A stretch of DNA of 64,000 nucleotides from a virus (lineage: Duplodnaviria; Heunggongvirae; Uroviricota; Caudoviricetes). A program made the position numbers and the translations under genes. Each line of letters starts with the position of its first letter. The first letter of the stretch is position 1. The notes under the pieces were generated by a model. The model did not search any database. It worked only from the letters and a program-made list of their open reading frames with translations, and was not told the origin of the DNA. Below, piece by piece: positions 1,337 to 45,405 of this stretch. The stretch lies in IMG/VR virus record IMGVR_UViG_3300046047_000272; one strand, 5' to 3'.

Positions 1337-2418
1337 CAGAACCGCCGGTCTATCGGATGTAGAGCTAGTACTAGTATAATTACTGATCCTCGTGGCTGCG
1401 TCCGAGGACGGCGGCATAGAATCATTATTAGAGGAATGGTTACATCTTTCATCATCTCATCAATCGCTTGTCATGAGATCAGGGACGGTCTATTATTGTG
1501 TGGAGGATATGACGATAGTCCTATGAGTGAGGATTAATGACGATGGGTCTAGTGATGATGACTAGCGTATGTCCATGTCCAGGGGTGATGTGAGCAGGAG
1601 CTTGCTGTGTGGTTGCTCCTGCTGGATGGATGGACGCTCCTGCAAAGCGTATTCCTAGGATATGCTTCCTCTTGGACACGGTTTATCGTTGCAGTGCCGC
1701 GGTTCCTGAAAATCACTTCTGCACGCTAAAACATGATGTTCTCCACTAGTTCTACGGGGCCAATGGACTCGCTGATCATTGCCATTCCATGCCTCTCACG
1801 TAATCTGTGTTCTCGTCACTGAGGATGACCATATGATCGTGTTGAGAGGCACAGAACCGCCGGTCTATAGGATGCAGAGCCAGTACTAGTATAAAATTAC
1901 TGATCCTCGTAGCAGCGTCCTAGGACGGCGGCTTAGCATCACGTCTATGGGTAGGTTCATATAATGATCCGCTTGGATTGATTCATCATACTAGGAATAG
2001 GAGCGGGATTGCCTATCATTATCATTGAGGTGCTGCTTAGGGTATCATTGAGGTGCTGCTTAGGGTATCATTGAGGGTCAGTGACGGAGTGGGCCCTCGT
2101 GGCTGGGCGCTCCTGCAGAGCGTATTCCTAGGATATGCTTCCTCGTGCACACGCTCTATCGTTGCGATGCCGCGGTTCCTGAAAATCGCTTCTGCACTCT
2201 AGAACATGATGTTATCCACTAGTTCTAAGGAGCCATTGACCCTGATAATTGTTGCAGCTTCGTGGTTCTAGCATGATCTGCATCCTCGTCGCTGAGGAAT
2301 GACGGTGAGATCGTGTTGAGACGCTCAGAACCGCCGGTCTAACAGCCGCAGACCCCGTATCCGTGTAATTATTGATCCTAGCAACTCGATCCGAGGACGG
2401 CGGCTTAGCGTCACGTCT
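1337..2418 (+). repeat. A/B modular repeat locus 1: A-linker-B-A-linker-B-A
   Basis: A (cagaaccgccggtct...cggcgg) at 1337, 1852, 2326; B (cgctcc...agcgtattcctaggatatgcttcctc...) at 1635, 2108. Confidence 0.95.
2021..2076 (+). repeat. 23-bp tandem repeat (about 2.4 copies) inside a linker
   Basis: atcattgaggtgctgcttagggt twice, then atcattgagg. Confidence 0.9.
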
Positions 2419-2560
2419 GTCAATAGCGTGAGTACATATCGTAGAGATAGCTTCACTGAGCGGATATGATGCTTATATGGTATTATGATCATTGTGAGGA
2501 ATGCGTAATCGTACGACCATGATGTCTTGACTGAGCTGAGAACAATGAAGGAGCGTTGAG

Positions 2561-3034
2561 ATGAGTAAGATTTTCGTCGCGTTGCATCGTCCTGATCTTA
2601 GGGATGATGCTATGATTGATGTCTTCATCGCTGGTGGCATATCAAATTGCGCTGATTGGCAGTCCACAGCGATGCGTGAACTCGATGGTGACGATGATGT
2701 GATCATCATGAATCCAAGGCGTCAGACAGGATTCGCTAAGACGGGTTCTTCCGCCGCTCAGCAGATTGCCTGGGAGCATGAGTATCTGAGTAAGGCGCGA
2801 TGCATTCTCTTCTGGTTCCCGGCATCAAGTATCTGTCCAATAACGTTATACGAGCTTGGCTGGGCTATATCACAACCAGGAAAGAAGATCATCGTTGGCT
2901 ATGAGCCTGGATATGCTCGATCCTTCGATATTCTCACGCAGCTTCACCTAGCCGCACCATCGATTCATGTTCACGATGATTTGCAGGATGTCCTTCAGGA
3001 GACGAAGGATTACCTCTCGTCTACGCATCGTTGA
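2561..3034 (+). CDS. nucleoside 2-deoxyribosyltransferase-like protein
   Basis: FIAGGI..C.DWQ, NPRR, QIAWE..YL, ILFWFP, PITLYELG motifs. Confidence 0.8.
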   Translation: MSKIFVALHRPDLRDDAMIDVFIAGGISNCADWQSTAMRELDGDDDVIIMNPRRQTGFAKTGSSAAQQIAWEHEYLSKARCILFWFPASSICPITLYELGWAISQPGKKIIVGYEPGYARSFDILTQLHLAAPSIHVHDDLQDVLQETKDYLSSTHR

Positions 3035-3092
3035 TGATCGCGAGTTAACCGTCGGCAAGCGTGCCACCAATATGTACAAAGAAGGAGTCATC

Positions 3093-3650
3093 ATGCAGGA
3101 TCGTTATGTTATTTTTGATTTAGAGGCCTCATGTGATCATGATAATTCGACAATGACGATGGAGACCATCGAGATTGGCGCCGTGGACACTGAAGGCCAT
3201 GTCTTCGATAGTTTCGTGAAGCCGATCGTCAATCCTATCCTCACTGACTATTGTCAAGATCTGACGTCTATCACGCAGGCTGATGTTGACGCTGCTGAGA
3301 CGTTTCCACATGTCTGGCCGTCGTTCCTCGATTTCGTCGGATCATCTCCGATGCTGTCATGGGGTGCCTATGATCGTCGACAGCTCTTATCAGACCTCCA
3401 CTTGCATCACATCACGGAGGGTGTGGATGTGGTCAATCATCAGCATATGAACCTGAAGGATTATTATCGTGTAATCATGCATCGAAGGGCTAAGGGCATG
3501 GACGCTGAGCTGAGAAGATTACAGTTGCCATTAGATGGTGTCCATCATAGGGGCGTTGATGACGCGAAGAATCTGTTGAAGATCTTCAACTATCTCCTCG
3601 ACCGGTCTCACGGCGAGCTGCCAGATCGTCTTGAGATGGAAAGACCTTGA
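3093..3650 (+). CDS. DEDDh 3'-5' exonuclease (ERI-1/KapD-like)
   Basis: IFDLEASC, IEIGAV, FVKP..NPILT..C..LT.ITQ.DVD.A, WG.YD, HHRGVDDA; AAGGAG RBS before ATG 3093. Confidence 0.9.
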   Translation: MQDRYVIFDLEASCDHDNSTMTMETIEIGAVDTEGHVFDSFVKPIVNPILTDYCQDLTSITQADVDAAETFPHVWPSFLDFVGSSPMLSWGAYDRRQLLSDLHLHHITEGVDVVNHQHMNLKDYYRVIMHRRAKGMDAELRRLQLPLDGVHHRGVDDAKNLLKIFNYLLDRSHGELPDRLEMERP

Positions 3651-3870
3651 CGTTATGATCGGTGGTGTACTGACATGGCCGTCAGTGCGTTAGCTCTATC
3701 GAGCCAGTCTGACGTAAGGTCAACTGTTAGAAGATGAGGTGCATCCTTATCAGTACTATCTTACGAGATGATCATATCAAGACGACGTGTCTAATCCATG
3801 ATTGAGGTGTGGTCGAATCGTCATCTATCGATATCTTGTCAATAGGATAGATAAGCGATAGGAGTATACG

Positions 3871-4559: not shown

Positions 4560-5620
4560 TTAATGCATATTAGACACGATCTGGTCGATGTGATAATTGA
4601 TCCTCGACAAGGTTGACCGATCCGAGCTGATCGTCATATGATCCTGATTCAACGTGACGAGTTGATCGTGCATATGGACAAGATGTCCAAGCATATCTCT
4701 CATACTTTTGATCACAATTGTTGACTTAGTATCGAGAGCATGATCGTGGGCATTCATAAGATCGTGTTGAAGGATCTTAATATCGTCCTTTGTGGCATCA
4801 TTCAATCCAATATTATCGATGAGTTGAAGATTGTCGTGAATTAGGTCAAGGCATTGATGATAGATGTCATCACTATGATTCCCATGATCAGCGAGTCTAG
4901 TAATGACCTCGTCTTTCCTAAGATCGTATTCTGGATTCAATGATGATAATCTCTTACGAGCAATGATAAAGAAACGATTCACGATAATGTCGATTTGGTC
5001 ATGCGATAATGCTATTGGTGACCATATGGTCAGATCCTGTAGATCGTGCTGGCGTGAATGATACTCGTATCCAAAATCATGTAGATCTGTCTCTCTAATA
5101 TGAAGATGATCCGAGGTGTCCTGAGCATTCATCGTTGAGATAATAACGGTCTGTTCCTGATGCTGATCATTAAGAACGGTCTGCGTGGTGATATAGTCCT
5201 GAACGATGGTGTCATCCCTGGCGATATTATCCATTATGGTAATTGATGTCATCATGAGTATCCCAGGAAGCAGGAAGATGAAAGACGGTAATGCTGTTAG
5301 TCCAGCAAATATTGGTATGAATGCGCCTAATAGGGAGACGTCATAGATATAACCACGCCTACAGCAGGTATCAGGGAATCACCCCAGCGTCCATATGACC
5401 GTATGATCTTCAATAAATATCGGCCTTTTCTATGAGCCATCATCCAGGTCATGAATCGTGACGTTCTAGAAGAAATCTTAGATTTCATCCAACGCCAGAT
5501 CGTATTGGTCTTATTGTTCTTACTATGGATGATTTTCTTCCGAGAATCCTCAGATATAGACGAATACGCTATTCTTTGTTGTCCAGTCAACACTTGGTGT
5601 AATTGTTGTAATGCGGACAT
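4560..5620 (-). pseudogene. frameshifted member of the variable-TM paralog family
   Basis: 5327..5620 has the family N-terminus (AYSSISEDSRK) and 4560..5255 the C-terminus (ITTQTVLNDQHQEQTVIISTM, LTIWSPI); one extra C near 5333 would fuse them through a hydrophobic segment; may be a sequencing indel. Confidence 0.75.
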
Positions 5621-5646
5621 AGACGTCTCCTCTCCTATGGTTATGT

Positions 5647-6741
5647 TTATCCGTGTACTGCTGACGGTAAGGCAACATCATCTAATAGGTTGTCTATTTG
5701 GCGGTTCATGAGTGATAGATGTGATTGAGCATCATGGATGGACGTGTAATCCTCATTCAAAATGAGAAGTTTCTCATTCATAGACTGGAGTGTGTCCCTC
5801 ATGCGTTCTAATTCACGAAGAGTAATCGTTGAGGACATGTTCAGACCATGAGTATTAGCATCACTAAGACACTCGGTGACGACATTGAGATGCTCGCGCA
5901 GTGATTGCTGATCAAGGTGGTCAATCATCCTTCGATTATCAATGATGAGAGCAACGCATTGATCGTATACCGGTGAGCGTTCGTCAACGGGAAGATTCTT
6001 ACTGACCTGTTGATAATGACGAATATCGTATTTGACGTCTAATGAGGACAGGCGACGCTGCATGGTGATAGCATCTCGTTCTGACAATACCCCTATCTGA
6101 TCCTCGGTCAACGGTGTTGGTGACCAGATAGTCAATGGTTGTGTATCGTATTTCGTTCCACTGTAACTATGACCGATGGCCTCTAACGATGCCTCTGGTA
6201 TACCAAGATGCTGAGCAGTGTCCTTAGCCGTCATGGTTGATACGATGACGGTATGCTCGTGCTGCTGGTCGTCATGAACGATATGCGTGGTGATATGAGA
6301 TTGAAGGAGCGCTTGATCAAGAAGAAGATTAGTAAGATAGGGTATCAGAAACACAATGAAAGACGGCATCATCAGAGGAATGATGTAACACATAATCATA
6401 AAACCGATACTGTCCGTATTATGAATAAGCGATAACGGAATGATCATACCAGATATAACCAAGACTATAGCAACTGGCGTAGCGACAAGATTGACATAGT
6501 CTAATGCTTTCTTATGATGCAATAAGCCACATAGTCTACGAAACCATCGATGCTTAAGCCGTTTCGATACGTGTCGTTCATATAACTGCTTCACCATTAC
6601 GGATAATCGTGATAGTCCAGTCTTCTTCTGACGATCTGTCAACGTATTTTTACGTGATTCATCAGATATCGATGAGTAGATAACGCTAGGCGTGTCACTA
6701 ATGGTCTGCTCAGCTAAGCGTTTCCGTTCCTGATTATTCAT
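5647..6741 (-). CDS. variable-TM paralog family membrane protein
   Basis: Basic N-terminus, 2 TM, HITTH..HDD.QHEHT.IVSTM, LTIWSP, LLILNEDY motifs shared with 41230-46696. Confidence 0.85.
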   Translation of the reverse strand: MNNQERKRLAEQTISDTPSVIYSSISDESRKNTLTDRQKKTGLSRLSVMVKQLYERHVSKRLKHRWFRRLCGLLHHKKALDYVNLVATPVAIVLVISGMIIPLSLIHNTDSIGFMIMCYIIPLMMPSFIVFLIPYLTNLLLDQALLQSHITTHIVHDDQQHEHTVIVSTMTAKDTAQHLGIPEASLEAIGHSYSGTKYDTQPLTIWSPTPLTEDQIGVLSERDAITMQRRLSSLDVKYDIRHYQQVSKNLPVDERSPVYDQCVALIIDNRRMIDHLDQQSLREHLNVVTECLSDANTHGLNMSSTITLRELERMRDTLQSMNEKLLILNEDYTSIHDAQSHLSLMNRQIDNLLDDVALPSAVHG

Positions 6742-6756
6742 ATGGCCCTTCTCTCA

Positions 6757-7781: not shown

Positions 7782-7810
7782 AATGATTCCTCCTAATGTG
7801 TACGATGATT

Positions 7811-9383: not shown

Positions 9384-10034
9384 ATGTCTAGAACTATCAA
9401 GGACACGCCATACCATGTAATTCATGACCGTGCTCGCGATGAGGACTATACTCGCAGATCAAATATCAACACTCGCTGGTACGGATCTGGACGATACACC
9501 ATGATGGTCATCAGCATTCCTGAGGATATGGATTACCTCATTCAGGATTGGTCTGATTGGATGCAGTCCATAGGACTCGATGTCTGCATACGTCGACATG
9601 AGCACACCGGATACGAGCGTCTCTTCCCTCGAATTCTCGTTACTAATCGTGCTGGACTAGCGTTCATGAATGATCTTGATGACGAAGATCGTCCAGAGCG
9701 TCGAGCACTTGACCCGAATATGGTGATTGACGCGACGAGTATGGTCACCAAGATCGAGGGACATGCTAAGCCCTCAGAGGACGATGAGCCCGCTGTTTAT
9801 GAGTCCGTTGATGTTAATGAGTATGCATTCATCGATCATGAACATCGCAAGGATCGACACGTCAACGCTGGTCTTATCCGCCGCTGGTACAAGGATGAAC
9901 GCTTCATGCCAGAACGATCAACCGTCAAGGATCATCTACGTCATGCTGTACTCAGATACAACGCGGATGAGGACCTTGATGACTGGGACGATGACCTAGT
10001 CAGTCAGAGGAAGCCATACGTCCTACGCTGGTGA
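9384..10034 (+). CDS. hypothetical protein (MSRTxKDxP start)
   Basis: 216 aa ORF, AAGGAG RBS, strong terminator downstream. Confidence 0.75.
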   Translation: MSRTIKDTPYHVIHDRARDEDYTRRSNINTRWYGSGRYTMMVISIPEDMDYLIQDWSDWMQSIGLDVCIRRHEHTGYERLFPRILVTNRAGLAFMNDLDDEDRPERRALDPNMVIDATSMVTKIEGHAKPSEDDEPAVYESVDVNEYAFIDHEHRKDRHVNAGLIRRWYKDERFMPERSTVKDHLRHAVLRYNADEDLDDWDDDLVSQRKPYVLRW

Positions 10035-10049
10035 CATGACCGCTTAATC

Positions 10050-10121
10050 AAGGCGCCAAATATGATATCTTATCGGGACTATGTGAGATAAGATATCATA
10101 TTTGGCGCCTTATCTTTTTTT
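10050..10121 (+). terminator. intrinsic terminator
   Basis: Perfect 25-bp inverted repeat 10050-10074/10087-10111 followed by T7. Confidence 0.9.
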
Positions 10122-10137
10122 ATGATCAACGTCATCT

Positions 10138-10713
10138 ACACCGTCATTCTCTGATGCTATACCAAGGATCAATAATTACTCGGACACAGGGTTCGAGTCC
10201 GTTAGACCGGCGGTTCTGAGCGTCTCAGTATGATCTCACCGTCATTCCTCAGCAACACATCCTCAGATCACATGAGAACCAGGGAATGGCAATGATTAGC
10301 AGGGTCAATGGCTCTGTAGAACCAGTGAAGAACATCATGCTCTAGTGTGCAGGAGTGATTTTCAGGAACCGCGGCACTGCAACGATAAACCGTGTCCACG
10401 AGGAAGCATATCCTAGGAATACGCTCTGCTGGAGCGCCCAGCCATCAGGCAGGAACGATCCCCCAGCACACTCCTGATCACATCACCAATGATCATGCAC
10501 CAGCGATCATGCATGACGCCCATCACCATGCACCACTGCCGTCATGATCACTTAGATAGAGACCCATATGATTGATGGATGTACGATTATGACAGTAGAC
10601 GCAAATATGCGTCCATCTCTAGATATGATGCTAAGCCGCCGTCCTCGGACGCTGCTACGAGGATCAGTAATTATACGGATACTGGGTCTGCGTCCGATAG
10701 ACCGGCGGTTCTG
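10138..10713 (-). repeat. A/B modular repeat locus 2: A-linker-B-A
   Basis: Reverse-complement A at 10636-10713, B starting at 10436, degenerate A starting at 10218. Confidence 0.95.
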
Positions 10714-10731
10714 TTGTCTCTGAATATCCTT

Positions 10732-10767
10732 GTGGCCTGAATACAGGATTGTCCATATTCAGGCCAC
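10732..10767 (-). terminator. hairpin downstream of 10800..11126
   Basis: gtggcctgaata/tattcaggccac 12-bp inverted repeat. Confidence 0.55.
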
Positions 10768-10799
10768 GGGTTCGTCAAGGATAGATGACGATTGCAGGT

Positions 10800-18147: not shown

Positions 18148-18278
18148 AGATCTAGTTAGGCTCAGAACACGAGTAAAGATTCATGTTCTGAGCCTATTCT
18201 GACTGGCGCTGAGCATAAAAGCCCTCAGATGATACGTTATACTAGACGAGACTAGAATCAGGATTAGACGCGAGATCT
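18148..18278 (+). repeat. 131-bp element C, copy 1
   Basis: AGATCT at both ends; 12-bp IR taggctcagaac/gttctgagccta around acgagtaaagattcat. Confidence 0.95.
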
Positions 18279-21776: not shown

Positions 21777-21840
21777 GCAAGAAGGCCGCTGATATGGACA
21801 GATGAGACCACCAAGTCATGTGTCCATATCACAAGAAGAA

Positions 21841-22412
21841 CAGAACCGCCGGTCTAACGGAAGCTGAGCCAGTACTAGTATAATTACTGATCCTCGTGGC
21901 TGCGTCCGAGGAAGGCGGCTTAGCATCACGTCTAGGAGTAGGTTCATAGTATGGCCAACTGGGTCTTATGCATCGTGATCGGAGTAATAGAAGTCAGCTG
22001 ACGTGGCTTGCTCGTGTTGAGGTGGTCGGCAAGGGTTGGGTGAGTGGTGCCGCTGGGTATCTCAAGGCTGAGTGAACTAAGTGAGGGTGACCTAGGCATG
22101 GGCGCTCCTGCAGAGCGTATTCCTAGGATATGCTTCCTCGTGGACACGGTTTATCGTTGCAGTGCCGCGGTTCTCTAAGATCGGTTCTGTACACTAGAAC
22201 ATGATGCTTCTCACTAGTTCTACGGAGCAAACAAGCCCTCTGATCGTTGCAGCTTCGCGGGTCTCACATGATCTTAGGAGGTATTGCTGAGGTATGACGG
22301 TGAGATCGTGTTGAGACGCTCAGAGCCGCCGGTCTAACGCACGCAGACCTAGCGCTCGTGTAAATTACTGATCCTATCCATAGTGTCCGAGTATGGCGGA
22401 TTAGGATCATGT
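21841..22412 (+). repeat. A/B modular repeat locus 3: A-linker-B-A
   Basis: A 21841, B 22103, A 22321. Confidence 0.95.
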
Positions 22413-33872: not shown

Positions 33873-34003
33873 AGATCTAGTTAGGCTCAGAACATGAATC
33901 TTTACTCGTGTTCTGAGCCTATTCTGACTGGCGCTGAGCATAAAAGCCCTCAGATGATACGTTATACTAGACGAGACGAGCATCAGGATTAGACACGAGA
34001 TCT
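33873..34003 (+). repeat. 131-bp element C, copy 2 (loop inverted)
   Basis: Near-identical to 18148-18278 except that the 16-bp loop is the exact reverse complement. Confidence 0.95.
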
Positions 34004-36565: not shown

Positions 36566-37477
36566 ATGAAGAATTTTGTTAATGCGCAGGATATGGTTGG
36601 CCAAGCAGCTGACCGTGGAGAAGCTATTGGTGCGTTCAATGTGAACAATATGGAGTGGGCGCAGGCGATCATCCGTGGATCTGTGCAGGCCAATCGTCCT
36701 GTCATCATGCAGGTGTCTATGGGCGCAGCCGAGTATATGGGAGGCTATGAGGCCGCGTATGGTATGATTGACTCGCTCATCTCATCGTGGAAACGCCATA
36801 AGGTCATCCCCGAGGATTGGGTGACGGTTCTTCATGCAGATCATGCTGACTACGATCATGCATTGGAGGCCATTGATGCTGGATTCACCAGCGTGATGTT
36901 CGATGGATCGAGTCTCCCTATTGAGAAGAATCTGATGCTCACTAACTGCATCATCCCACTTGCCCATGCCAGGCATTGCACGGTCGAATCAGAGGTTGGC
37001 AGCATTGGAGGCAGTGAAGATGGCATCTATGGCGATGGTGAGATCTCGCCCATCGAGGACGTGCTGACCATGGCTAATATCCATCCTGATATGATGGCCA
37101 TTGGCATTGGTAACATCCATGGTCCATATCCTGAGAACTGGACTGGTCTGAACTTCGAGTATCTCGCCCAGGTGAACGATGCTCTGAAACAGCGATTTGG
37201 CGTGGTTCCGCCACTGGTGCTCCATGGAGGATCTGGCATCCCTCGTGAGCAGGTTGATCGAGCGATCACTGAGGGCATCGCGAAGGTCAATGTGAACACG
37301 GAGTTGCAGCTGGCCTTCTACCACGCTCTTCGTGATGGCGTGACCACCCTGCCATCTGAGGATAAGGTCACGGCTGATAAGCTCTTTGATCCGAGGAAAC
37401 TGTTGAAGACGCCTACTCAGGCTATGCAGGACACGGTGGTTGAGTTGAGCGAGCAATTTGCCCCTAAGGGCAAGTGA
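36566..37477 (+). CDS. fba: class II fructose-bisphosphate aldolase
   Basis: GAFNVNNMEW, HADH, SVMFDGS, E.EVG.IGG.EDG, GIGNIHGPYP, VLHGGSG, KVNVNTE, FDPRK. Confidence 0.95.
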   Translation: MKNFVNAQDMVGQAADRGEAIGAFNVNNMEWAQAIIRGSVQANRPVIMQVSMGAAEYMGGYEAAYGMIDSLISSWKRHKVIPEDWVTVLHADHADYDHALEAIDAGFTSVMFDGSSLPIEKNLMLTNCIIPLAHARHCTVESEVGSIGGSEDGIYGDGEISPIEDVLTMANIHPDMMAIGIGNIHGPYPENWTGLNFEYLAQVNDALKQRFGVVPPLVLHGGSGIPREQVDRAITEGIAKVNVNTELQLAFYHALRDGVTTLPSEDKVTADKLFDPRKLLKTPTQAMQDTVVELSEQFAPKGK

Positions 37478-37499
37478 CTCATGGCATAGGAGGTGCATC

Positions 37500-38273
37500 A
37501 TGCGTCGTCGTAGGATCGTTATTGGCAATTGGAAGATGAATCTTGACCATACTCAGGCGAGGATTCTTCTGCATGACATCAAACCGTCGGTGAAGCGGTT
37601 AGATGGACTTGATGTGATGGTTCTACCATCATTCACGGCTATTCATTCGGTGTGTCAGTATCTTCGTAAGCATCATATTCCCATGATGTTCGGTGCGCAG
37701 AATGTCTCTGATACGGACGGTGGATCGTACACGGGTGATGTCAGCGCGTCGATGCTCAGATCACTTGGCTGCTCGGCGGTTCTGATTGGTCATTCTGAGC
37801 GTCGTATGCATCATCATGAGGACAATGCTTGCCTGACCCGTAAGCTGCAAACGACGCTCTCGGAGAATCTCACGCCCATTTTCTGCATCGGCGAGTCAGC
37901 TGAGGCCTACGAGCAGGGTCAGACCGAGCAGACGATTATCAGCCAGCTGTCTGTGCTCGATCAGTGCTCTAATGCTGAGGTCGCGGACATGATTATCGGC
38001 TATGAGCCGGTATGGGCTATTGGCAGTGGATCGACACCATCGGTTGAGGACATCGGAAACATTGCTAGGAGCATCCGAGAGTATATACGATCAACACGAG
38101 GAAAGGACGTGGCGAAGACCATCAGAATCGTGTATGGTGGATCGGTGAACATGTGGAATGCTGCTGAACTCTCCTCCATTGATAATCTTGATGGATTCCT
38201 CGTCGGTGACGCATCATTGCAGGCCGACACCTTCCTACCGATTATCTCGTCGTTGCACGCATCAAAACAGTAA
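37500..38273 (+). CDS. tpiA: triosephosphate isomerase
   Basis: GNWKMN, GAQNV, YTGDVS, GHSERR, CIGE, YEPVWAIG, YGGSV. Confidence 0.95.
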   Translation: MRRRRIVIGNWKMNLDHTQARILLHDIKPSVKRLDGLDVMVLPSFTAIHSVCQYLRKHHIPMMFGAQNVSDTDGGSYTGDVSASMLRSLGCSAVLIGHSERRMHHHEDNACLTRKLQTTLSENLTPIFCIGESAEAYEQGQTEQTIISQLSVLDQCSNAEVADMIIGYEPVWAIGSGSTPSVEDIGNIARSIREYIRSTRGKDVAKTIRIVYGGSVNMWNAAELSSIDNLDGFLVGDASLQADTFLPIISSLHASKQ

Positions 38274-38292: not shown

Positions 38293-38490
38293 ATGGCTAA
38301 ATCGTCTTTTGAAGAACGAATGAGGGCATATGGCCTAGGATCAATGAGATGGCCGTGGCCTGATCCTAATGAAACCCGCTGGACGAGTCTTAGGACATGG
38401 CTGACGAATCATCCTGATGCATCAGCTGAGGACGTCATCAAGCGTATGGACAATGACAATCCTGGCTCCATCAGAACATCGACGATATGA
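38293..38490 (+). CDS. hypothetical protein
   Basis: AAGGAG RBS, 65 aa. Confidence 0.55.
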   Translation: MAKSSFEERMRAYGLGSMRWPWPDPNETRWTSLRTWLTNHPDASAEDVIKRMDNDNPGSIRTSTI

Positions 38491-38558
38491 CGCAACGACA
38501 TCATATCGTCTGTATGATGGATGATGGTCAAGCATCACTAGAGTGATTGCATGACCTG

Positions 38559-38641
38559 CAGAACCGCCGGTCTAACTGATGTGGACTCACGGCTGACACG
38601 ATTATAGGTGGAATGTCATGGGTCCGAGGACGGCGGCTTAG
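38559..38641 (+). repeat. solo module A (locus 4)
   Basis: cagaaccgccggtctaac...tccgaggacggcggcttag with a diverged middle and the same 73-bp span. Confidence 0.85.
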
Positions 38642-38654
38642 ACGCCGTGTTAGA

Positions 38655-39377: not shown

Positions 39378-40589
39378 ATGAGTGGAGCACCTCAGGTTGT
39401 GGTTGGATTAGGTTATGGGGATGAGGGTAAGGGCATGACCACGGCGTTCCTTGCAGAGGAACGCTCTCGGCGGGGAGGCCAGCCATTAGTCGTGCGATGG
39501 AATGGTGGCCCACAGGCTGCCCACAATGTCCGCATCAGAGGTCAACATCACACGTTCTCACAGTTCGGCAGTGGATCGTTCAGTGGCGCTGGCACGCTCC
39601 TATCAGGAAAAATGCTGGTCAGCCCATTCGCCTTGATGAGTGAGGCCGCTGATCTCATGGATCTTGGTCTGCGTCCGCTGACCAATCTGATGATTGATCG
39701 TAGCGCGCCATTGCTCCTACCAGTCCACGCGACGGTGAATCAGGAACTCGAACGGTCTAGGGGATCTAAGAGACACGGCTCTGTTGGCATTGGCGTCGGC
39801 ATTGCCAGATCCTATGAGGAAGACATGGATGATGCCGGGCAGAGGAGCCTTGTCCCACGTGTAGACGATCTGTCCGATCCATTCACCCTAGCCGATAAGA
39901 TCAGTGATATGATCACCTGGCTTCAAGATCGATTCCATGTGCAACTGATCATGCCATTGAGCGAGGTCAGACGCCTGGCGACGAGTCTGCACACGGTGTA
40001 CGATGATCTCATGGCGTCTGGTGTGATCATCACATCGACAGGCAACGTGCTCTATGAGAGGAGGCATCAGGCAGAGGATCTCATCTTCGAGGGATCCCAG
40101 GGTGTGATGCTGGATCTTCGCTACGGATACTTTCCTCATGTCACCTATGGCTGGATGCTGCCGGATGACGTCATGAGCTATGCGCACATGGCTGAGCTTC
40201 CGAAGCCATCAGTCATTGGCTGTACGAGGACCTATTCGACGAGGCATGGATTTGGACCATTCCCACCAGAAGGCAGTTACGATGTGGAGGAGCCTGATAA
40301 TGCTACTGGTGTCTGGCAGGGCGCGTTCAGGACGGGCGTCCTCGATATCGGCACCTTAGCGTACACGGCTAATCTTCTGACACCAGATGCTATCAGCGTA
40401 TCATGCATGGACTTGTATCCAGGTCGCGTGATTACTCACTATGAGGACATGCATGATGGCGGGATGGGCAAGCCAATCCAGGAGTCAGCCACATTAGAGG
40501 AGACCCTGCACATGATCGAGGAAGCGAGTAAGGCGCCAATCATCATAGGGGGTCATGGTAAGACCATTGAGGACTGGAAGCGAATCTGA
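39378..40589 (+). CDS. divergent adenylosuccinate synthetase-like (PurA family) protein
   Basis: GLGYGDEGKG, R.NGG.QAAH, FEGSQG..LD..YG.FP.VT, Y.TRHG.GPFP, R.G.LD. Confidence 0.88.
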   Translation: MSGAPQVVVGLGYGDEGKGMTTAFLAEERSRRGGQPLVVRWNGGPQAAHNVRIRGQHHTFSQFGSGSFSGAGTLLSGKMLVSPFALMSEAADLMDLGLRPLTNLMIDRSAPLLLPVHATVNQELERSRGSKRHGSVGIGVGIARSYEEDMDDAGQRSLVPRVDDLSDPFTLADKISDMITWLQDRFHVQLIMPLSEVRRLATSLHTVYDDLMASGVIITSTGNVLYERRHQAEDLIFEGSQGVMLDLRYGYFPHVTYGWMLPDDVMSYAHMAELPKPSVIGCTRTYSTRHGFGPFPPEGSYDVEEPDNATGVWQGAFRTGVLDIGTLAYTANLLTPDAISVSCMDLYPGRVITHYEDMHDGGMGKPIQESATLEETLHMIEEASKAPIIIGGHGKTIEDWKRI

Positions 40590-40654
40590 CGCGTGGACAG
40601 GGAGAAGGTCGTCGTACGAGTAGATAACCGCTAGATCAAGCGAGAACCTTATCA

Positions 40655-41075
40655 GGACAGCCATTCAGGAGTGGATAGGCTCTGTGGAACCAGTGGAGAA
40701 CATCATATTCTAGCGTGCAGGATGCATCTACGAGAACCGCGGCACTGCAACGATAGAGCGTGTGCACGAGGAAGCATATCCTAGGAATACGCTCTGCAGG
40801 AGCGCCCGGGTCGGGACTGGCGTTGCCCACACCCTCATGCTCACAAAACCCTGCCGAGCCAACGAGTGGCCTGGAGCGTGCTGATCACCATTAATATGCT
40901 GGAGTCTCACGGTTTCTCCCTCATGGCGGTCATGCTCATCATGCAGCTCATCGTATAAAATCAGAATACAAACCTACCATTAGACGTGATGCTACGCCGC
41001 CGTCCTCGGACGCTGCCATGAGGATCAGTAAATTATACTAGTACTGGGTCCGCGTCCGATAGACCGGCGGTTCTG
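40655..41075 (-). repeat. A/B modular repeat locus 5: A-linker-B
   Basis: Reverse-complement A at 40997-41075 and B starting at 40804. Confidence 0.93.
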
Positions 41076-41229
41076 TGCCTTCTAATAATGGCCTATCCAC
41101 GGCCATCATTGTCAGCAGGTCATCATATGGATGATGATCACGCCGGTGACACTCCTCATGACTCTTTGTTAAGTACCATCATTGATGATACGATGTCATG
41201 CAATATGGATTGAAGGAGGTGTCTATTTC

Positions 41230-42300
41230 ATGATGAGACAGGTCACTAGAGCAAGAGCCATTCTAGCCGATCATACGATAACTGATCAATCGGTCATCGT
41301 CTACTCTGAGGTGTCAGATGAGGATAGGAAACGGCGATTGAGATCATGGGAGAAGCCTACTGGCTGGCGTCGTGTATCCTCAACGATGCATCGATGGTAT
41401 AAGAGGATATTGTTGAAGGCTCTTAACGGTCGTCTTCTGCGAAAGATGGTCGTCAAGTTGCATCGATTAAGTCAGTATTACGTAGCTGGTAATGTGATGA
41501 TGGCGTTTTTCATGATCTTAGCCAGTACGATGATGGCCATTCCAGCTTTCCTAACACATGCTTTGATGATCGCCTATATCGCGTTGTCTGTGCCGGTGGC
41601 CGTCATGATCATTGCCATACTAGCAGGAATTCTTCACCATGATCATACGTTGAAAGAGGATCATGTCACGACGCATCGTGTTCTTGATGATCATCATCGC
41701 GAGCATACGGTCATTATCTCGAATATTAGGTACACGGAAGAGGTGGCTGCATTGCTTAAGATGAGCTATTCTGAATTGAACAATATCGGATACGATTATT
41801 ACCATTACGATCTGTCAACACTTAGCATATGGTCACCAATACCATTGTCTGAGGTTCAGAGGGCCGCATTGCTCAAACGTGATGCTCTTATGATTCAGCA
41901 TCGATCTGAGTCATTGGACACTATCTACGATCTTCGTGATGATACGCATGTAGGCAGTGATCATCATGATGATCGGTTTAGCCGATATGATCAATGCATC
42001 GATCTCATTCAGGATAATCGACGGTTGATTGATGGTATCGGTCAGCCAGTGCTTGCTGATCAGTTAGATGTGATTCAGCGACGGTTGAGTGACGTGCAGA
42101 GCCATGGCTTAGATATGGCTTCTTCTACCACGATGCGTGATCTCGAGGATGTTCTTGCGCAGCTTGATCATATGCATGATCAGTTACTGGTCCTGAATGA
42201 TGATTGCGTCTCAGTCCATAACAGTAAGTTGGATTTATCATACATCAATAAGCAGCTTGACACGATGACCAGTACCGTCTCAACGGTTGTGAGCGAGTAG
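41230..42300 (+). CDS. variable-TM paralog family membrane protein
   Basis: Family motifs VYSEVSD, HVTTH.VLDDH..EHT, IWSPIPLS, HDQLLVLN. Confidence 0.85.
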   Translation: MMRQVTRARAILADHTITDQSVIVYSEVSDEDRKRRLRSWEKPTGWRRVSSTMHRWYKRILLKALNGRLLRKMVVKLHRLSQYYVAGNVMMAFFMILASTMMAIPAFLTHALMIAYIALSVPVAVMIIAILAGILHHDHTLKEDHVTTHRVLDDHHREHTVIISNIRYTEEVAALLKMSYSELNNIGYDYYHYDLSTLSIWSPIPLSEVQRAALLKRDALMIQHRSESLDTIYDLRDDTHVGSDHHDDRFSRYDQCIDLIQDNRRLIDGIGQPVLADQLDVIQRRLSDVQSHGLDMASSTTMRDLEDVLAQLDHMHDQLLVLNDDCVSVHNSKLDLSYINKQLDTMTSTVSTVVSE

Positions 42301-42313
42301 AAAGGATGGGCAT

Positions 42314-43441
42314 ATGACGGCGAGGAGCGAGCGCAGACACGTAGCTGAGCAGACGATGGGCGATCATCCCATGATGGTGTACTCTGATGTGGCAGATGAC
42401 GTCAGATGGCATCAACTGGACCATCGTCGTCAGAGGAGGGGATTAGCTCGTCTGCTCACAGTGGCTCATAGAGGATACAAGAGGGTGCTGTATCGGATGC
42501 TTCATCATCGCTATCTCAGGATAGCCATAGGAGCCTTATGTAAATTCAATAGTGATGAATACGTGAAGCCGCTGGCCGTATCTCTTCACGGTGGATTCAT
42601 CGTCAAGTCTGTCTTTGTTATGGAAATCATAATTCGCACCTTAGGATTAGGCGTGTTTATCCTCACTCTACCGCTATTTATTCCCCTAGCCATCAAGCTC
42701 ATATTCTCGCCATTCATGTTGATCGACCTACCGTTATTCATCTCCCTAACTATCAGGTTTATGTTCATACCATGGTATATGGATAAGACCCTCAGGGAGC
42801 ATCACATAACCACGCATGTGGTCCTTGACAATCATCTCCAAGAGCATACGATCATTGTCTCAACGATGAATGAGCAGTATACGGCTAAGCATGTGAAGAT
42901 GACGGAGGCTGAATTAGACACTAATGAGTACGTCTATCATGTGAGGCACGATCTTCGGCCACTGACCATATGGTCAACGATACCATTGTCCGAGGATCAG
43001 ATAACCACGCTGGCAGGCCGTGATTTTCTGATGGCCCAGCAGCGAGTCGAATCATCAGATGCTCGATACGATCTTCATGATGACCAGCAGATCAGTGACG
43101 CTCATGCTGATGCTTGTCTCCCATTGTACTATCAGTGCGTTAATCTCCTCGATGATAATCGTCGTCTCATCGAGCATATCGGCCAGCCAGCGCTTGCTGA
43201 TCGGTTAGATGAGATGACTAGGAATTTGAGTGACGTGAAGAACCATGGATTAGACATATCATCTGACATGACGATCAGTGAGCTTAATGCCATGCACGCA
43301 CAGCTTGATCATATGCACGATCAGCTACTCGTTCTGAATGAAGATTACATCTCAGTGCATCATACGACGATATCCTTATCGGATATCAATACGCAGCTTG
43401 ACACGATGGCCAGTACCGTCTCAACGGTTATGAGCGAGTAG
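42314..43441 (+). CDS. variable-TM paralog family membrane protein
   Basis: Family motifs; internal 60-bp duplication in the TM region. Confidence 0.85.
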   Translation: MTARSERRHVAEQTMGDHPMMVYSDVADDVRWHQLDHRRQRRGLARLLTVAHRGYKRVLYRMLHHRYLRIAIGALCKFNSDEYVKPLAVSLHGGFIVKSVFVMEIIIRTLGLGVFILTLPLFIPLAIKLIFSPFMLIDLPLFISLTIRFMFIPWYMDKTLREHHITTHVVLDNHLQEHTIIVSTMNEQYTAKHVKMTEAELDTNEYVYHVRHDLRPLTIWSTIPLSEDQITTLAGRDFLMAQQRVESSDARYDLHDDQQISDAHADACLPLYYQCVNLLDDNRRLIEHIGQPALADRLDEMTRNLSDVKNHGLDISSDMTISELNAMHAQLDHMHDQLLVLNEDYISVHHTTISLSDINTQLDTMASTVSTVMSE

Positions 43442-43454
43442 AAAGGATGTGCAT

Positions 43455-44513
43455 ATGACGTCACGAAAAGAACGCGGCCGCGTAGCAGAGCAGACGATGG
43501 TCGGTCAGCCAGTGATGGTGTACTCAGAGGTATCAGACGACCTAAGATGGCATCAACTGCATCATCGTCATCAGAGGAGGGGATTAGCTCGCCTGCTCAC
43601 AGTAGCTCATAGAGGATACAAGACCTTGCTGTCCCGGATGCTCCATCATCGTTATCTCAGGAGAGTCATCGGATTCTTGTGTCGATTTGATAGTGATGCG
43701 TACACCGTGCTGATTGGCCTATCTATTCCCTTCAGTCTCATGTTCAGTTTTGTCCTTGCAGTATACAGAATGATTACGACCATGAGCTCATTCATGCTCA
43801 TCAGCATCATACCGCTATGCATTTCCTTAGCCATCAAGGTCATCCTCATGCCATGGTATACGGATAAGACGATCATGGAGGATCATATCACCACGCATCG
43901 AGTTCGTGATCATCGTCTTCAAGAGCATACGATCATTGTCTCGACGATGGACAGTGAACATACGTCTGAGCATCTGAGGATTACTGAGGCTGAATTAGAT
44001 ACTAATGAGTACGTCTATCATGTGAAGCATGATCTTCGGCCACTGACCATATGGTCGACGATACCATTGTCTAAGAATCAGATCGTCATACTATCAGAAC
44101 GTGATTTTCTGATGGTCCAGCAGCGAGTTGAGTCATCTGACACCAGATATGATCTTCATGATTATCACCAGGTCAGTGATGATCATACTGATGCTCGTCT
44201 CCCATTGTACTATCAATGCGTTGATCTCCTCCATGATGATCGTCGTCTCATCGAGCAGATTGGTCAGCCAGCACTAGCCGACCAATTAGGTGTCATAGCT
44301 AATCATATGAGTGAAGCCAAGAATCATGGTCTGAGCATATCATCTGATATCACGATGCGCGAATTGCGAGACATCCTGGCTCAACTAGACGATATGCATG
44401 ATCAGTTACTCGTTCTGAATGAGGATTACGCATCTATCAGAAACGATAAGATGACCATATCAAGAATCAATCAGCAGGTTCATATGATGGCCAAGGAATC
44501 TGTGTCGGAATAA
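43455..44513 (+). CDS. variable-TM paralog family membrane protein
   Basis: Family motifs; closest to 42314..43441. Confidence 0.85.
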   Translation: MTSRKERGRVAEQTMVGQPVMVYSEVSDDLRWHQLHHRHQRRGLARLLTVAHRGYKTLLSRMLHHRYLRRVIGFLCRFDSDAYTVLIGLSIPFSLMFSFVLAVYRMITTMSSFMLISIIPLCISLAIKVILMPWYTDKTIMEDHITTHRVRDHRLQEHTIIVSTMDSEHTSEHLRITEAELDTNEYVYHVKHDLRPLTIWSTIPLSKNQIVILSERDFLMVQQRVESSDTRYDLHDYHQVSDDHTDARLPLYYQCVDLLHDDRRLIEQIGQPALADQLGVIANHMSEAKNHGLSISSDITMRELRDILAQLDDMHDQLLVLNEDYASIRNDKMTISRINQQVHMMAKESVSE

Positions 44514-44598
44514 GCCTCTGATCATCAATAGGAGGTATCATAATAGCAATATGAGCCATGAATACCGCCAAGGACACTCGACATGCTCCTCAGACGCA

Positions 44599-45405
44599 CA
44601 GAACCGCCGGTCTATCGGACGTAGAGCCAGTACTAGTATAATTACTGATCCTCATGGCTGCGTCCGAGGACGGCGGCATAGAATCACGTCTAGTGGTATG
44701 ATCATATAATGATCTACTTGGCTTCATCTATCAGGCCAGGAGTATGAGCGGGATACTCATCGTTGAGGGTTTGTCGAGATACGTCGTTGAGGGGCTGTCA
44801 AGAGCGGGTGATTGAACGGGGGGGGGGTTGTGCCTCGCGGCTTGGGCGCTCCTGCAGAGCGTATTCCTAGGATATGCTTCCTCGTGGACACGATCTATCG
44901 TCGCAGTGCCGCGGTTCTCTAAGATCGGTTCTGTACGCTAGAATATGATGTAATATGACTGCTCTACGGAGCAAGCAATCACGATGATCGTTGCCATTCC
45001 AAGGGTCTCACGCGATCTGCGCTCATCAACGACGAGGAATACCATGGATGAGCATATGAGACATGCAGAGACGCTGGTCTGATGGATGTGGGCGTAGACC
45101 TAGTACGAACGTACACCATCATCAAGGTGAAGAGGGCTGCGGTCAGTAGAGGGTGGATGATCGGCATGAGGTATGTCCTTGGTGGAGTCATCTGTTTTGT
45201 GCCTCGCGGCTTGGGCGCTCCTGCAGAGCGTATTCCTAGGATATGCTTCCTCGTGCACACGCTCTATCGTTGCAGTGCCGCGGTTCCTCAAAATCACTTC
45301 CGCACACTAGAATATGATGTTTTTTACTGGTTCTACGGAGCATATTAGCTCCTGAATGGCTGTTTTTCAAGTTCTTGGGGCATCTTCAGTATGATTGCTG
45401 AGGAC
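44599..45405 (+). repeat. A/B modular repeat locus 6: A-linker-B-linker-B
   Basis: A 44599, B 44847, B 45216. Confidence 0.93.

What the first reader, a model, noticed from the sequence alone, without database searches (positions are those of the whole stretch)
1337..45405. Modular A/B dispersed non-coding repeat system at six intergenic loci
Seen: two modules recur only between genes, in a consistent grammar on either strand. A-B-A-B-A (1337-2418,+), A-B-A (10138-10713,-), A-B-A (21841-22412,+), solo A (38559,+), A-B (40655-41075,-), A-B-B (44599-45405,+). Totals are 10 A and 7 B. Every locus begins with A, and B is always co-oriented. No transposase, Cas gene or integrase lies next to any locus. 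Inference: a multi-copy cis-acting system, such as recombination or gene-shuffling sites, replication/partition sites, a non-autonomous mobile unit with A as a terminal direct repeat (tandem dimer and solo copy both present), or a family of ~500-nt RNAs. I cannot match it to a family I know.
Basis: partly seen in the sequence, partly recalled or inferred. Interest (0 to 1): 0.88.

Follow-up and report, generated by a model that had tools for sequence, protein, structure and literature searches.

The report
Modular non-coding repeats in huge phage
A phage-like genome of about half a million bases carries a real, previously undescribed family of gene-free repeat units (a long hairpin, a G-rich variable stretch and a conserved block) that fill its largest gaps between genes. 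They likely spread and reshuffle as selfish DNA, and what they do is untested.

Summary
The 16-nt A core occurs 10 times where 0.02 are expected. A profile search finds 10 A, one decayed eleventh A (45060-45107) and 7 B. All lie between ORFs, and B is always downstream of A on the same strand.

Each unit is A (about 90 nt, a long imperfect hairpin), then V (105-208 nt, unalignable but always G-tract-rich), then B (about 230 nt, with an 80-nt core 88-96% identical). B shows no coding signal and no convincing RNA fold. The trailing A of each array is decayed. Modules are mosaic between units.

The loci fill the five largest intergenic gaps, in every gene context and in both orientations. No transposase, integrase, reverse transcriptase or Cas gene was detected in the window. 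No Rfam family matches, and no relative turned up in the phage, plasmid, viral, metagenome or genome collections.

The source is a bioreactor-sludge genome that looks like a huge phage; the longest contig on record is 491,046 bp. Contig depth suggests roughly 25-30 copies genome-wide.

Best reading (0.4): selfish, recombining non-coding cassettes gained and lost at the A hairpin, which acts in single-stranded form. Rivals are an ncRNA gene family, PeSL-like regulatory cassettes, and replication-type cis sites. I class it as a new variant of a known kind, of moderate interest.

The parts
1331..1424 (+). A1, leading hairpin module of locus 1
   Evidence: nhmmer E 4e-29; RNA MFE -35.5 kcal/mol, z -3.3
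1425..1625 (+). V1, variable G-tract-rich spacer
   Evidence: GC skew +0.35, 3 G3+ tracts against 0 C3+; unalignable to other V except its last ~49 nt, which match V3
1626..1845 (+). B1, conserved module
   Evidence: nhmmer E 3e-72; alignment
1846..1941 (+). A2, internal hairpin module of leading type
   Evidence: nhmmer E 7e-27; MFE -31, z -2.7; one compensatory CG-to-AU pair
1942..2099 (+). V2, variable spacer with a 23-nt tandem duplication
   Evidence: 6 G3+ tracts against 1 C3+; its first 68 nt are 78% like V6; duplication seen
2100..2319 (+). B2
   Evidence: nhmmer E 1e-75
2320..2413 (+). A3, trailing A; the 5' arm is intact but the hairpin has decayed
   Evidence: nhmmer E 2e-25; MFE -19.5, z +0.5
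10626..10715 (-). A4, leading hairpin of locus 2
   Evidence: nhmmer E 4e-28; MFE -33.3, z -3.8
10446..10625 (-). V3
   Evidence: GC skew +0.22 on the element strand, 3 G3+ against 0 C3+
10225..10445 (-). B3
   Evidence: nhmmer E 1.5e-76
10134..10224 (-). A5, trailing decayed A
   Evidence: nhmmer E 4e-23; MFE -17.8, z +0.7
21835..21928 (+). A6, leading hairpin of locus 3
   Evidence: nhmmer E 3e-28; z -1.8
21929..22093 (+). V4
   Evidence: GC skew +0.39, 5 G3+ against 0 C3+
22094..22314 (+). B4
   Evidence: nhmmer E 8e-76
22315..22409 (+). A7, trailing decayed A with one change in the core
   Evidence: nhmmer E 2.5e-24; z -1.4 with a different fold
38553..38643 (+). A8, solo A; both arms are conserved and the interior is unrelated yet still pairs
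   Evidence: nhmmer E 1e-19; MFE -31.3, z -1.9; alignment
40987..41080 (-). A9, leading hairpin of locus 5
   Evidence: nhmmer E 3.5e-27; MFE -35, z -3.0
40812..40986 (-). V5
   Evidence: GC skew +0.14, 4 G3+ against 2 C3+
40627..40811 (-). B5, truncated; it lacks the B tail and a trailing A
   Evidence: nhmmer E 2e-58, profile positions 4-188 only
44593..44686 (+). A10, leading hairpin of locus 6, 97% identical to A1
   Evidence: nhmmer E 4e-29; MFE -37.7, z -4.2; identity
44687..44837 (+). V6, containing a run of 10 G
   Evidence: GC skew +0.35, 5 G3+ against 0 C3+; sequence
44838..45059 (+). B6
   Evidence: nhmmer E 1.6e-68
45060..45107 (+). Ax, strongly decayed A; only its 5' part is recognisable
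   Evidence: nhmmer E 0.03, profile positions 2-43; alignment
45108..45206 (+). V7
   Evidence: GC skew +0.29, 2 G3+ against 0 C3+
45207..45433 (+). B7; the tail is present but the trailing A has decayed beyond recognition
   Evidence: nhmmer E 1.3e-66; alignment

Best explanation
These are non-coding A-V-B units that occupy intergenic gaps of a huge phage-like genome. They likely persist as selfish, recombining DNA cassettes that are gained, duplicated and lost at the A module, which is predicted to act as a hairpin in single-stranded form. SHOWN: (1) The unit is A (~90 nt imperfect hairpin with invariant arms), then V (a variable, G-tract-rich spacer), then B (~230 nt with a nearly invariant 80-nt core and no coding signal). 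(2) Units occur solo, single, in tandem and truncated, in either orientation and in every kind of gene junction. (3) The A that ends an array keeps its 5' arm but has lost its hairpin. (4) Different modules of one unit have different closest relatives. INFERRED: An enzyme encoded elsewhere in the ~0.49-Mb genome or by the host, or the phage's own homologous recombination, exchanges DNA at the conserved A arm. Insertion of an A-V-B circle at an existing A would then give A-V-B-A, a second insertion would give A-V-B-A-V-B-A, and excision would leave a solo A. The B core and the A arms would be kept by selection as the recognised sequences. What V and B do for the phage, if anything, is not known.
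For: Placement: the loci fill the 5 largest intergenic gaps (592-1483 nt), in -+, +- and ++ junctions and in either orientation, so they are not tied to a neighbouring gene. Locus 6 lies between tandem paralogues whose other junctions are 7-13 nt.
Forms: one solo A, A-V-B-A twice, A-V-B-A-V-B-A, and truncated forms.
Polarity: 6 leading or internal A plus the solo A fold at -30 to -38 kcal/mol (z -1.8 to -4.2). The 3 trailing A do not share that fold (z +0.5, +0.7, -1.4), although their 16-nt 5' arm is intact in 2 and has one change in the third.
Mosaicism: A of U6 is closest to U1 (97%), the start of its V to U2 (79%) and its B core to U4 (96%).
Uneven conservation: B core 88-96%, A 80-97%, middle of V 19-49%. 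Uniform neutral decay would not give this.
Strand-specific single-strand signal: in the A stem there are 37 G-T cells against 8 A-C cells out of 280, and 19 against 2 in the six well-folding leading and internal copies. V has 23.9 G3+ tracts per kb on the element strand against 2.6 on the other, with positive GC skew in 7 of 7. A and B show no skew.
Other points: no target-site duplication or terminal inverted repeat was seen by eye at the locus ends. In 4 of 6 loci the leading A starts 2-11 nt after a locus-specific hairpin (z -2.5 to -5.9), as with elements that insert beside hairpins. More copies exist outside the window: 13 of 16 flanking loose ends are absent from it, and summed contig depth over the A core is 708-880 against 28.7 beside it.
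Against: No mobility event was seen. Where contigs of the other three runs cover loci (solo A8, locus 5, the start of locus 6) they show the same insertions with 0 differences, and no empty site was found.
No transposase, integrase, HUH or reverse-transcriptase family was detected among the ORFs I scanned: 62 at E<=1e-5 and 30 unknown ones at E<=0.05. The rest of the genome could not be read.
V differs almost completely between units, which is unusual for recently copied elements.
Covariation in the A stem is weak: 83.6% paired against 82.4% in shuffles, and 74 of 500 shuffles reach the observed value. Selection on the fold is therefore not demonstrated.
The strand asymmetries are explained just as well by transcription of the element strand. 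The G-T and A-C cells are not independent events.
Confidence: 0.4

Rival explanations
1. A family of non-coding RNA genes. Each unit would be transcribed from A towards B. The A hairpin would serve as a processing or stabilising signal (as the conserved RNase III hairpins between T7 early genes do; recalled, not tested). V would be a variable G/U-rich segment and B a constant sequence that binds a protein or pairs with a target.
For: A, V and B are strictly co-oriented in 7 of 7 units. G-U-compatible changes outnumber A-C in the A stem on the element strand, 37 against 8. V shows element-strand G+T richness and G-tract excess in 7 of 7 units whatever the genome strand. Conservation is uneven, with a nearly invariant B core. 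There is no coding signal: the synonymous fraction is 0.16-0.23 in all six frames, and variable sites fall 23/27/19 by codon position.
Against: The B core folds no better than shuffles on either strand (z +0.3 to -1.3 sense, +0.4 to -2.2 antisense), and its predicted folds differ between copies. Whole units have z -0.5 to -3.8 sense and +0.4 to -2.5 antisense. No promoter-like or terminator-like site recurs at a conserved place. No Rfam family matches. V matches nothing else in the window beyond chance. The decay of trailing A and the truncated units are not expected of maintained genes.
Confidence: 0.25
2. PeSL-like regulatory cassettes. A (stem-loop), and perhaps B, would insulate or drive transcription at gene boundaries. 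Their sequence conservation would make them landing pads for homologous recombination that shuffles neighbouring genes.
For: PeSLs of T4-type phages are conserved composite promoter plus stem-loop motifs. They sit between non-essential genes, mediate insertion, deletion and replacement, and give mini-circles (PMC2839356, passages read). Here A is a conserved stem-loop between genes. In 4 of 6 loci it lies 46-86 nt after the stop of a co-oriented upstream ORF (86, 64, 46 and 79 nt to the profile start of A). The window is rich in ORFans and auxiliary metabolic genes. Modules are mosaic.
Against: No recurrent sigma-70-like promoter or T-tract terminator lies in A or B, although the host's promoter type is unknown. 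Two of 6 loci point away from or against both neighbours. The cassettes between successive A carry no ORF, only V and B. Units of 450-520 nt are far larger than a regulatory signal needs to be.
Confidence: 0.15
3. Cis-acting sites for DNA transactions of the phage. One example is multiple replication start sites in which transcription through the G-rich V forms a persistent RNA-DNA hybrid. Others are partition, packaging or recombination hot-spot sites recognised through the B core.
For: The G-tract-rich, C-poor, strand-specific V lies between conserved blocks. The 80-nt B core is nearly invariant, non-coding and unfolded, with dyad symmetries such as AGCGTATTCCTAGGATATGCT, as expected of protein-binding DNA. 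The multi-copy spread over a very large genome also fits.
Against: No iterons or AT-rich unwinding block recur. Orientation is mixed with respect to a monotonic cumulative GC skew across the window. Tandem and truncated copies and decayed trailing A are not expected of essential sites. No known origin, parS or pac family could be tested.
Confidence: 0.07
4. Functionless remnants of local duplications, or an assembly artefact.
For: Repeats break short-read assemblies, and Logan contigs of the source run end at the repeats (table 8).
Against: Contigs of four runs from four studies carry the same A and B junctions with unique flanks. Ten copies share a 16-mer that is invariant in 9 and has one change in the tenth (22321), while V is unalignable. 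Neither neutral decay nor mis-assembly gives that pattern.
Confidence: 0.03

Closest known systems
PeSL (promoter-early stem-loop) cassettes of T4-type phages (Arbiol et al. 2010, PMC2839356, passages read; Comeau et al. 2014, PMC4122927, search listing and start of abstract only)
   Same: They are conserved composite non-coding motifs with a stem-loop. They are repeated between non-essential genes of a large phage and act as sites of recombination, producing mosaic arrangements and duplicated forms.
   Different: PeSLs are short and carry a consensus sigma-70 promoter, and their cassettes contain ORFs. Here the unit is 450-520 nt, no recurrent promoter was found, and the material between successive A is gene-free (V plus B).
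REP/BIME/REPIN and BOX-type modular intergenic repeats of bacteria; 'mobile/repeat sequence candidates' of the Breaker-lab surveys (PMC11109978, passages read; REP, BIME and BOX details recalled)
   Same: These are multi-copy, intergenic, hairpin-forming and modular, with orientation inconsistent relative to neighbouring genes and no adjacent transposase.
   Different: REPs are 20-40 nt, and BOX modules are 45-60 nt with no long variable spacer. None is described from a phage genome with a ~230-nt conserved second module. No RAYT or Y1 gene was detected in the window.
Integron attC sites and CALIN clusters (recalled)
   Same: A is an imperfect palindrome with conserved outer arms, unpaired bulged bases and a variable apex (solo A8). 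It shows a strand-biased fold and occurs in arrays of cassettes bounded by the site, as well as solo.
   Different: The R''/R' consensus (RYYYAAC...GTTRRRY) is absent from A (read). The cassettes hold no ORF. The arrays are dispersed in both orientations. No integrase was detected in the window.
IS200/IS605-derived non-autonomous elements (PATEs) moved as single strands by Y1 HUH transposases (recalled)
   Same: Both have a strand-specific hairpin near one end, no terminal inverted repeats, no target duplication, and insertion beside other hairpins.
   Different: The right-end hairpin is decayed in 3 of 3 trailing A. The interior is variable. No tnpA or tnpB was detected in the window. Tandem arrays are not typical of PATEs.
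Repeat regions of Campylobacter group II phages CP21/CP220 (PMC4546147, passages read)
   Same: They are extragenic repeat units with a conserved core, in direct or inverted arrangement, that divide a large phage genome and are linked to module inversion.
   Different: Those are arrays of up to 18 units of 72-86 bp around a 13-nt core at four places. Here the units are ~480 nt and tripartite, with at most 2-3 per locus.

Membership tests
Any Rfam 15 RNA family | A covariance-model match at the gathering score | tested here: not met
   There were 0 matches in the whole window. On two loci searched at E<=5, only two chance snoRNA matches appeared (15-16 bits against a gathering score of 35).
tRNA / tmRNA | A cloverleaf found by ARAGORN | tested here: not met
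   0 genes in the window.
MITE | Terminal inverted repeats and a target-site duplication at the unit ends | tested here: not met
   Units are bounded by direct copies of A, not by inverted ends. No duplicated flank was seen by eye at 6 loci.
MITE | A parent autonomous element with a transposase | not testable with these tools
   None was detected in the window. The rest of the ~0.49-Mb genome could not be read.
Integron attC / CALIN | Conserved R''/R' boxes (RYYYAAC ... GTTRRRY; consensus recalled) | tested here: not met
   On either strand, the ends of A (CAGAACCGCCGG ... GGACGGCGGCTTAG) do not fit (alignments).
Integron attC / CALIN | An imperfect palindrome with bulged bases and a variable apex | tested here: met
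   The folds show a 6-bp outer stem, a bulged G, 3 bp, a bulged A or U, and then 8-10 bp. Solo A8 keeps the arms with an unrelated interior.
Integron attC / CALIN | Cassettes that carry ORFs; an IntI integrase | tested here: not met
   There is no conserved ORF between successive A and no integrase family was detected in the window. The whole genome was not testable.
PeSL cassettes | A stem-loop plus a consensus early promoter in one motif | tested here: inconclusive
   The stem-loop is present. Promoter-like sites number 6 against 2.5±1.5 and 3 against 2.5±1.6 in shuffles, and none sits at a conserved position of A or B. The host promoter type is unknown.
CRISPR array | Short (23-50 nt) repeats, unique spacers of similar size, cas genes | tested here: not met
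   The repeated part is ~90 + ~230 nt and the variable part is 105-208 nt with a shared composition. No Cas family was detected in the window.
REP/REPIN with RAYT | 20-40-nt palindromes with a conserved 5' tetranucleotide; a RAYT gene | tested here: not met
   A is ~90 nt, and no Y1 transposase family was detected in the window.
IS200/IS605-type PATE | Hairpins at both ends recognised by a Y1 transposase | tested here: inconclusive
   The leading hairpin is present, but the trailing one has decayed in 3 of 3. Whether the genome has a transposase is not testable here.

The most novel reading that the evidence does not exclude
A huge phage runs an integron-like cassette system for gene-free modules. 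A is an attC-like site that folds on one strand, A-V-B circles integrate at A sites scattered through the genome, and an unrecognised recombinase encoded elsewhere in the ~0.49-Mb genome catalyses the exchange. This would make A a genome-wide set of docking sites for shuffling DNA in a virus.
Probability: 0.13. Interest if true: 0.8.

Novelty: new variant of a known kind. Interest (0 to 1): 0.45.

Why it matters
Huge phages are known almost only from metagenomes, and how they gain, lose and rearrange DNA is poorly understood. This is a sequence-defined, multi-copy, gene-free cassette with a strand-specific hairpin at its boundary. It gives concrete sites at which recombination, mobility or non-coding RNA production can be tested in such a genome. 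If A proves to be a recombination site, it would extend the PeSL and integron logic of site-bounded cassettes to a new virus lineage and to non-coding cargo. If the units are RNAs, they would be a new multi-copy phage RNA family. If they are only selfish repeats, they still explain the largest non-coding stretches of this genome and why its assembly breaks there.

Tried and rejected
Relatives of the elements. None was found in any collection.
- Megablast of window 1-25000 against plasmids: no match.
- blastn of locus 1 against phages: no match.
- Exact scans of viral contigs: B core 25-mer 0 hits; B 21-mer 0 hits; A 16-mer 3 hits and gapped A pattern 4 hits, all seed-only chance matches in unrelated, mostly GC-rich DNA.
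- Metagenome contigs with the gapped A pattern: 7 hits, all chance.
- Genome contigs with a B 20-mer: 1 hit inside a coding region of a Cryomorphaceae MAG, chance.

Relatives of the genome.
- The PurZ-like protein finds only viral contigs at 25-36% identity (one 48-residue fragment at 50%), with no synteny to use.
- The primase and one conserved protein find only distant phages.
- A paralogue protein has homologues only in its own genome.

Whole genome. None is held, so there is no genome-wide census and no search for a recombinase.

Expression. No RNA holder is listed among the public runs.

Empty sites. Laying contigs of four runs showed no bridging contig that skips a locus. The joints listed are cross-mapping of other copies. 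Coverage of the three non-source runs is 2-5x in 150-400-nt contigs.

Readings considered and set aside.
- Coding reading of B, including two frames that stay open in most copies: no synonymous excess in any frame; tblastx of the units against the window found nothing outside the loci.
- V as guide or antisense: only 12-19-nt matches at chance level.
- V as Shine-Dalgarno mimic: the genes use AAGGAG-type sites, not the TGAGGGT-type words enriched in V.
- Halophile origin guessed from acidic peptide patterns: pI is 4.5-9.0 and not acid-shifted.
- DnaA box in B: present only in B2.
- tRNA-like T-arm in A5: does not pair.
- A 9-mer, GCTCAGAAC, is shared by trailing A and the unrelated C repeat family; I estimate the chance of this at ~0.1, so it is not significant.

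Earlier notes of this scan. There are none for this genome.

Full report
OBSERVATION

The 16-nt core of A (CAGARCCGCCGGTCTA) occurs 10 times against 0.02 expected, and none of 100 shuffles reaches 10. Profiles built from the copies recover the following with nhmmer:
- 10 A (E 4e-29 to 1e-19);
- one strongly decayed eleventh A at 45060-45107 (E 0.03);
- 7 B (E 1e-76 to 2e-58).

Nothing else is found, and there is nothing at all in 46-64 kb. The last locus is A-B-(decayed A)-B, not A-B-B.

A third part was overlooked. Between each A and its B lies a spacer V of 105-208 nt, so the unit is A-V-B with a period of 470-517 nt.

ANATOMY

A (about 90 nt) is a long imperfect palindrome. A 6-bp outer stem (CCGCCG/CGGCGG) is followed by a bulged G, three pairs, a bulged A or U, then 8-10 pairs and a small apical hairpin.
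- Five leading or internal copies fold at -31 to -38 kcal/mol with z -2.7 to -4.2. A6 and the solo A8 reach z -1.8 and -1.9.
- A8 keeps both arms but has an unrelated interior that still pairs.
- The three A that end an array (2320, 10224r, 22315) keep the 5' arm but do not share the fold (z +0.5, +0.7, -1.4).
- Statistical support for selection on the fold is weak. 83.6% of cells pair against 82.4% in column shuffles, and 74 of 500 shuffles reach this. Slid controls give 31-49%.
- Non-Watson-Crick cells are strongly one-sided. There are 37 G-T against 8 A-C of 280 cells, and 19 against 2 in the six well-folding leading and internal copies. This favours folding of the element strand as a single strand, RNA or DNA. 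These cells are not independent events.

V cannot be aligned between most units; its middle is 19-49% identical. It nevertheless has a shared, strand-specific composition.
- GC skew is +0.14 to +0.39 in 7 of 7, whichever genome strand the unit lies on.
- There are 23.9 G3+ tracts per kb on the element strand against 2.6 on the other. The window background is 6.1 and 4.4.
- A and B have no skew.
- Words such as AGGGT, GAGGG and TGAGG are 5-14 times enriched, and their reverse complements are almost absent.
- These words are not the ribosome-binding sites of this genome, which are of the AAGGAG type.
- V matches nothing else in the window beyond chance.

B (about 230 nt) starts with an 80-nt core that is 88-96% identical between copies. 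It then becomes looser (57-83%, then 36-73%). It ends in a tail that is again conserved (65-88%) where a trailing A follows.
- B is not coding. In all six frames the synonymous share of differences is 0.16-0.23, variable sites fall 23/27/19 over the three codon positions, and stops interrupt most frames.
- B is not convincingly a folded RNA. The core plus middle folds no better than shuffles on either strand (z +0.4 to -2.2), with different folds in different copies.
- Consensus folding found no compensatory support on the element strand and one pair on the complement.
- Whole units give z -0.5 to -3.8 on the element strand and +0.4 to -2.5 on the other.

ARRANGEMENT

The six loci fill the five largest intergenic gaps of the window (592-1483 nt) and one of 381 nt. 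They lie in divergent, convergent and tandem gene junctions, and in both orientations relative to their neighbours. That speaks against a role tied to an adjacent gene.

Locus 6 sits between two members of a tandem paralogue series whose other junctions are 7-13 nt. In 4 of 6 loci the leading A starts 2-11 nt after a strong, locus-specific hairpin (z -2.5 to -5.9). I saw no target duplication and no inverted termini at the locus ends (by eye).

Relationships between units are mosaic. U6 has the A of U1 (97%), the early V of U2 (79%) and the B core of U4 (96%). Decay is polar: in all arrays the first A is intact and the last is decayed or missing.

CONTEXT

The window encodes:
- a Toprim primase;
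- a PurZ-type adenylosuccinate synthetase and a PurB-like lyase;
- a CCA-adding enzyme;
- class II aldolase and triosephosphate isomerase;
- Sir2;
- ADP-ribosylglycohydrolase;
- several HNH endonucleases;
- many ORFans.

No transposase, integrase, reverse-transcriptase or Cas family was detected, and there are no tRNAs. A paralogue protein has homologues only in its own genome, and the longest contig on record is 491,046 bp. The DNA is held almost completely by one bioreactor-sludge run and in part by three others. I therefore read it as a huge phage-like genome. That is an inference from gene content and size, because no structural genes lie in the window.

Laying the runs' contigs on locus 6 gives summed depths of 708-880 over the A core and 618-2079 over the B core, against 28.7 beside them. 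At least 16 contigs carry a variant at one A position. In addition, 13 of 16 flanking loose ends are absent from the window. Copies therefore exist outside the window. My rough figure of 25-30 per genome rests on depth sums that the tool itself warns are not copy numbers and that overlapping short contigs inflate.

SEARCHES FOR RELATIVES AND KNOWN FAMILIES

Rfam gives nothing at gathering scores, and only two chance snoRNA hits at E 3-5 on two loci.

No similar DNA was found in the phage or plasmid collections. Exact-pattern scans of the viral, metagenome and genome collections returned only chance matches.

No close relative of the genome was found through proteins. The family is so far confined to this lineage. 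For that reason, comparative tests (empty sites, covariation in diverged copies) could not be done.

HOW IT MOST LIKELY WORKS

The following points are what multi-copy selfish or recombining DNA looks like, and not what a cis-regulatory signal or a set of maintained genes looks like:
- orientation-free intergenic placement;
- solo, single, tandem and truncated forms;
- polar decay of the trailing A;
- mosaic modules;
- conserved boundaries with a free interior;
- no terminal inverted repeats or target duplication.

The one-sided G-T excess in A and the one-sided G tracts in V point to a step in which the element strand is single-stranded.

My best reading (0.4) is a non-autonomous cassette exchanged at the A arm. 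A circle carrying the rest of A, then V, B, the B tail and the arm would recombine with a resident A. That gives a well-conserved leading A and a trailing A made from the older resident site. A second event would give the dimer, and excision would leave a solo A. The recombination and the enzyme are inferred, and no event was observed. Where the other runs cover loci they carry the same insertions.

The same asymmetries fit transcription of the element strand, so an RNA-gene family is the main rival (0.25). It is weakened by the lack of a stable or shared fold in B and by the lack of recurring promoter or terminator signals. A PeSL-like regulatory and recombination cassette (0.15) and replication-type cis sites (0.07) remain possible. 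An artefact or neutral remnant is unlikely (0.03).

COMPARISON WITH KNOWN SYSTEMS

The closest described systems are these:
- PeSL cassettes of T4-type phages (PMC2839356, passages read);
- the modular REP/BIME/BOX type repeats, or 'mobile/repeat sequence candidates', of bacteria (PMC11109978, passages read; REP, BIME and BOX details recalled);
- integron attC sites (recalled);
- IS200/IS605-derived hairpin elements (recalled);
- the repeat regions of Campylobacter group II phages (PMC4546147, passages read).

The family fails the testable defining features of MITEs, attC/CALIN, CRISPR, REP/RAYT and every Rfam family. It is inconclusive for PeSL and PATE (see the membership table). Notes from this scan on other genomes show that modular hairpin repeats between genes are found often. 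I used those notes only as leads.

VERDICT

This is a confirmed, statistically solid, lineage-specific non-coding repeat family with an unusual tripartite unit, in a huge phage-like genome. It is a new variant of a known kind (dispersed modular intergenic repeats), and its function is unproven. Interest is moderate (0.45). It would rise sharply if A were shown to be a recombination site or if the units were shown to be RNAs.

Noticed in passing
18148-18278 (+), 33873-34003 (+), 54226-54364 (-), 58684-58814 (+): A second intergenic repeat family ('C', ~130 nt, 4 copies). It is built around a perfect 14-bp hairpin (TAGGCTCAGAACAT...ATGTTCTGAGCCTA). The central 12 nt (loop) are reverse-complemented in copy C2 (33873) relative to the others. 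It shares the 9-mer GCTCAGAAC with trailing A copies.
   Followed up: partly
whole window: Word usage is extreme. GATC occurs 742 times against 248 expected, CATG 662 against 248, TGATCA 143 against 17, TCATGA 137 against 17, and ATGATCAT 46 against 1.2. AAATTT and TTTAAA occur 0 times against ~20 expected. This looks like a highly iterated palindrome, or strong methylation- or restriction-related selection.
   Followed up: no
39378-40589 (+), 25874-27256 (+), 32037-32963 (+): A PurZ-type adenylosuccinate synthetase (PHROG 1211, E 6.5e-60), a PurB-like lyase and an HD-domain protein lie in the window. The genome may replace adenine by 2-aminoadenine (a Z-genome); this was not tested.
   Followed up: no
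36566-38273 (+): Class II fructose-bisphosphate aldolase and triosephosphate isomerase genes lie side by side in a phage-like genome (Pfam E 2e-76 and 8e-78). These are unusual auxiliary glycolytic genes.
   Followed up: no
41182-46696 (+); 4560-6741 (-): A family of ~355-375-aa paralogues, four in tandem plus two on the other strand. It has no Pfam family, and its homologues are found only in this genome among 5.8 billion proteins.
   Followed up: partly
10714-10783, 21771-21840, 38489-38558, 41076-41145: Locus-specific strong hairpins (DNA fold z -2.5 to -5.9) end 2-11 nt before the leading A in 4 of 6 loci. The two loci without one (1337, 44599) share a 97% identical A and the same ~12 nt upstream of it.
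   Followed up: partly
~10036-10105: A long, near-perfect hairpin (GGCGCCAAATATGATATCTTATC ... GATAAGATATCATATTTGGCGCC) lies between the trailing A of locus 2 and the end of the convergent gene 9384-10034. It is likely a bidirectional terminator (seen).
   Followed up: no
44812-44821; ~60215-60225: Runs of 10-11 G occur, one inside V6 and one just upstream of the start of gene 60233-60547. Both are possible slippage-prone tracts.
   Followed up: no
2019-2075: A 23-nt unit (ATCATTGAGGTGCTGCTTAGGGT) is tandemly duplicated about 2.5 times inside V2.
   Followed up: no
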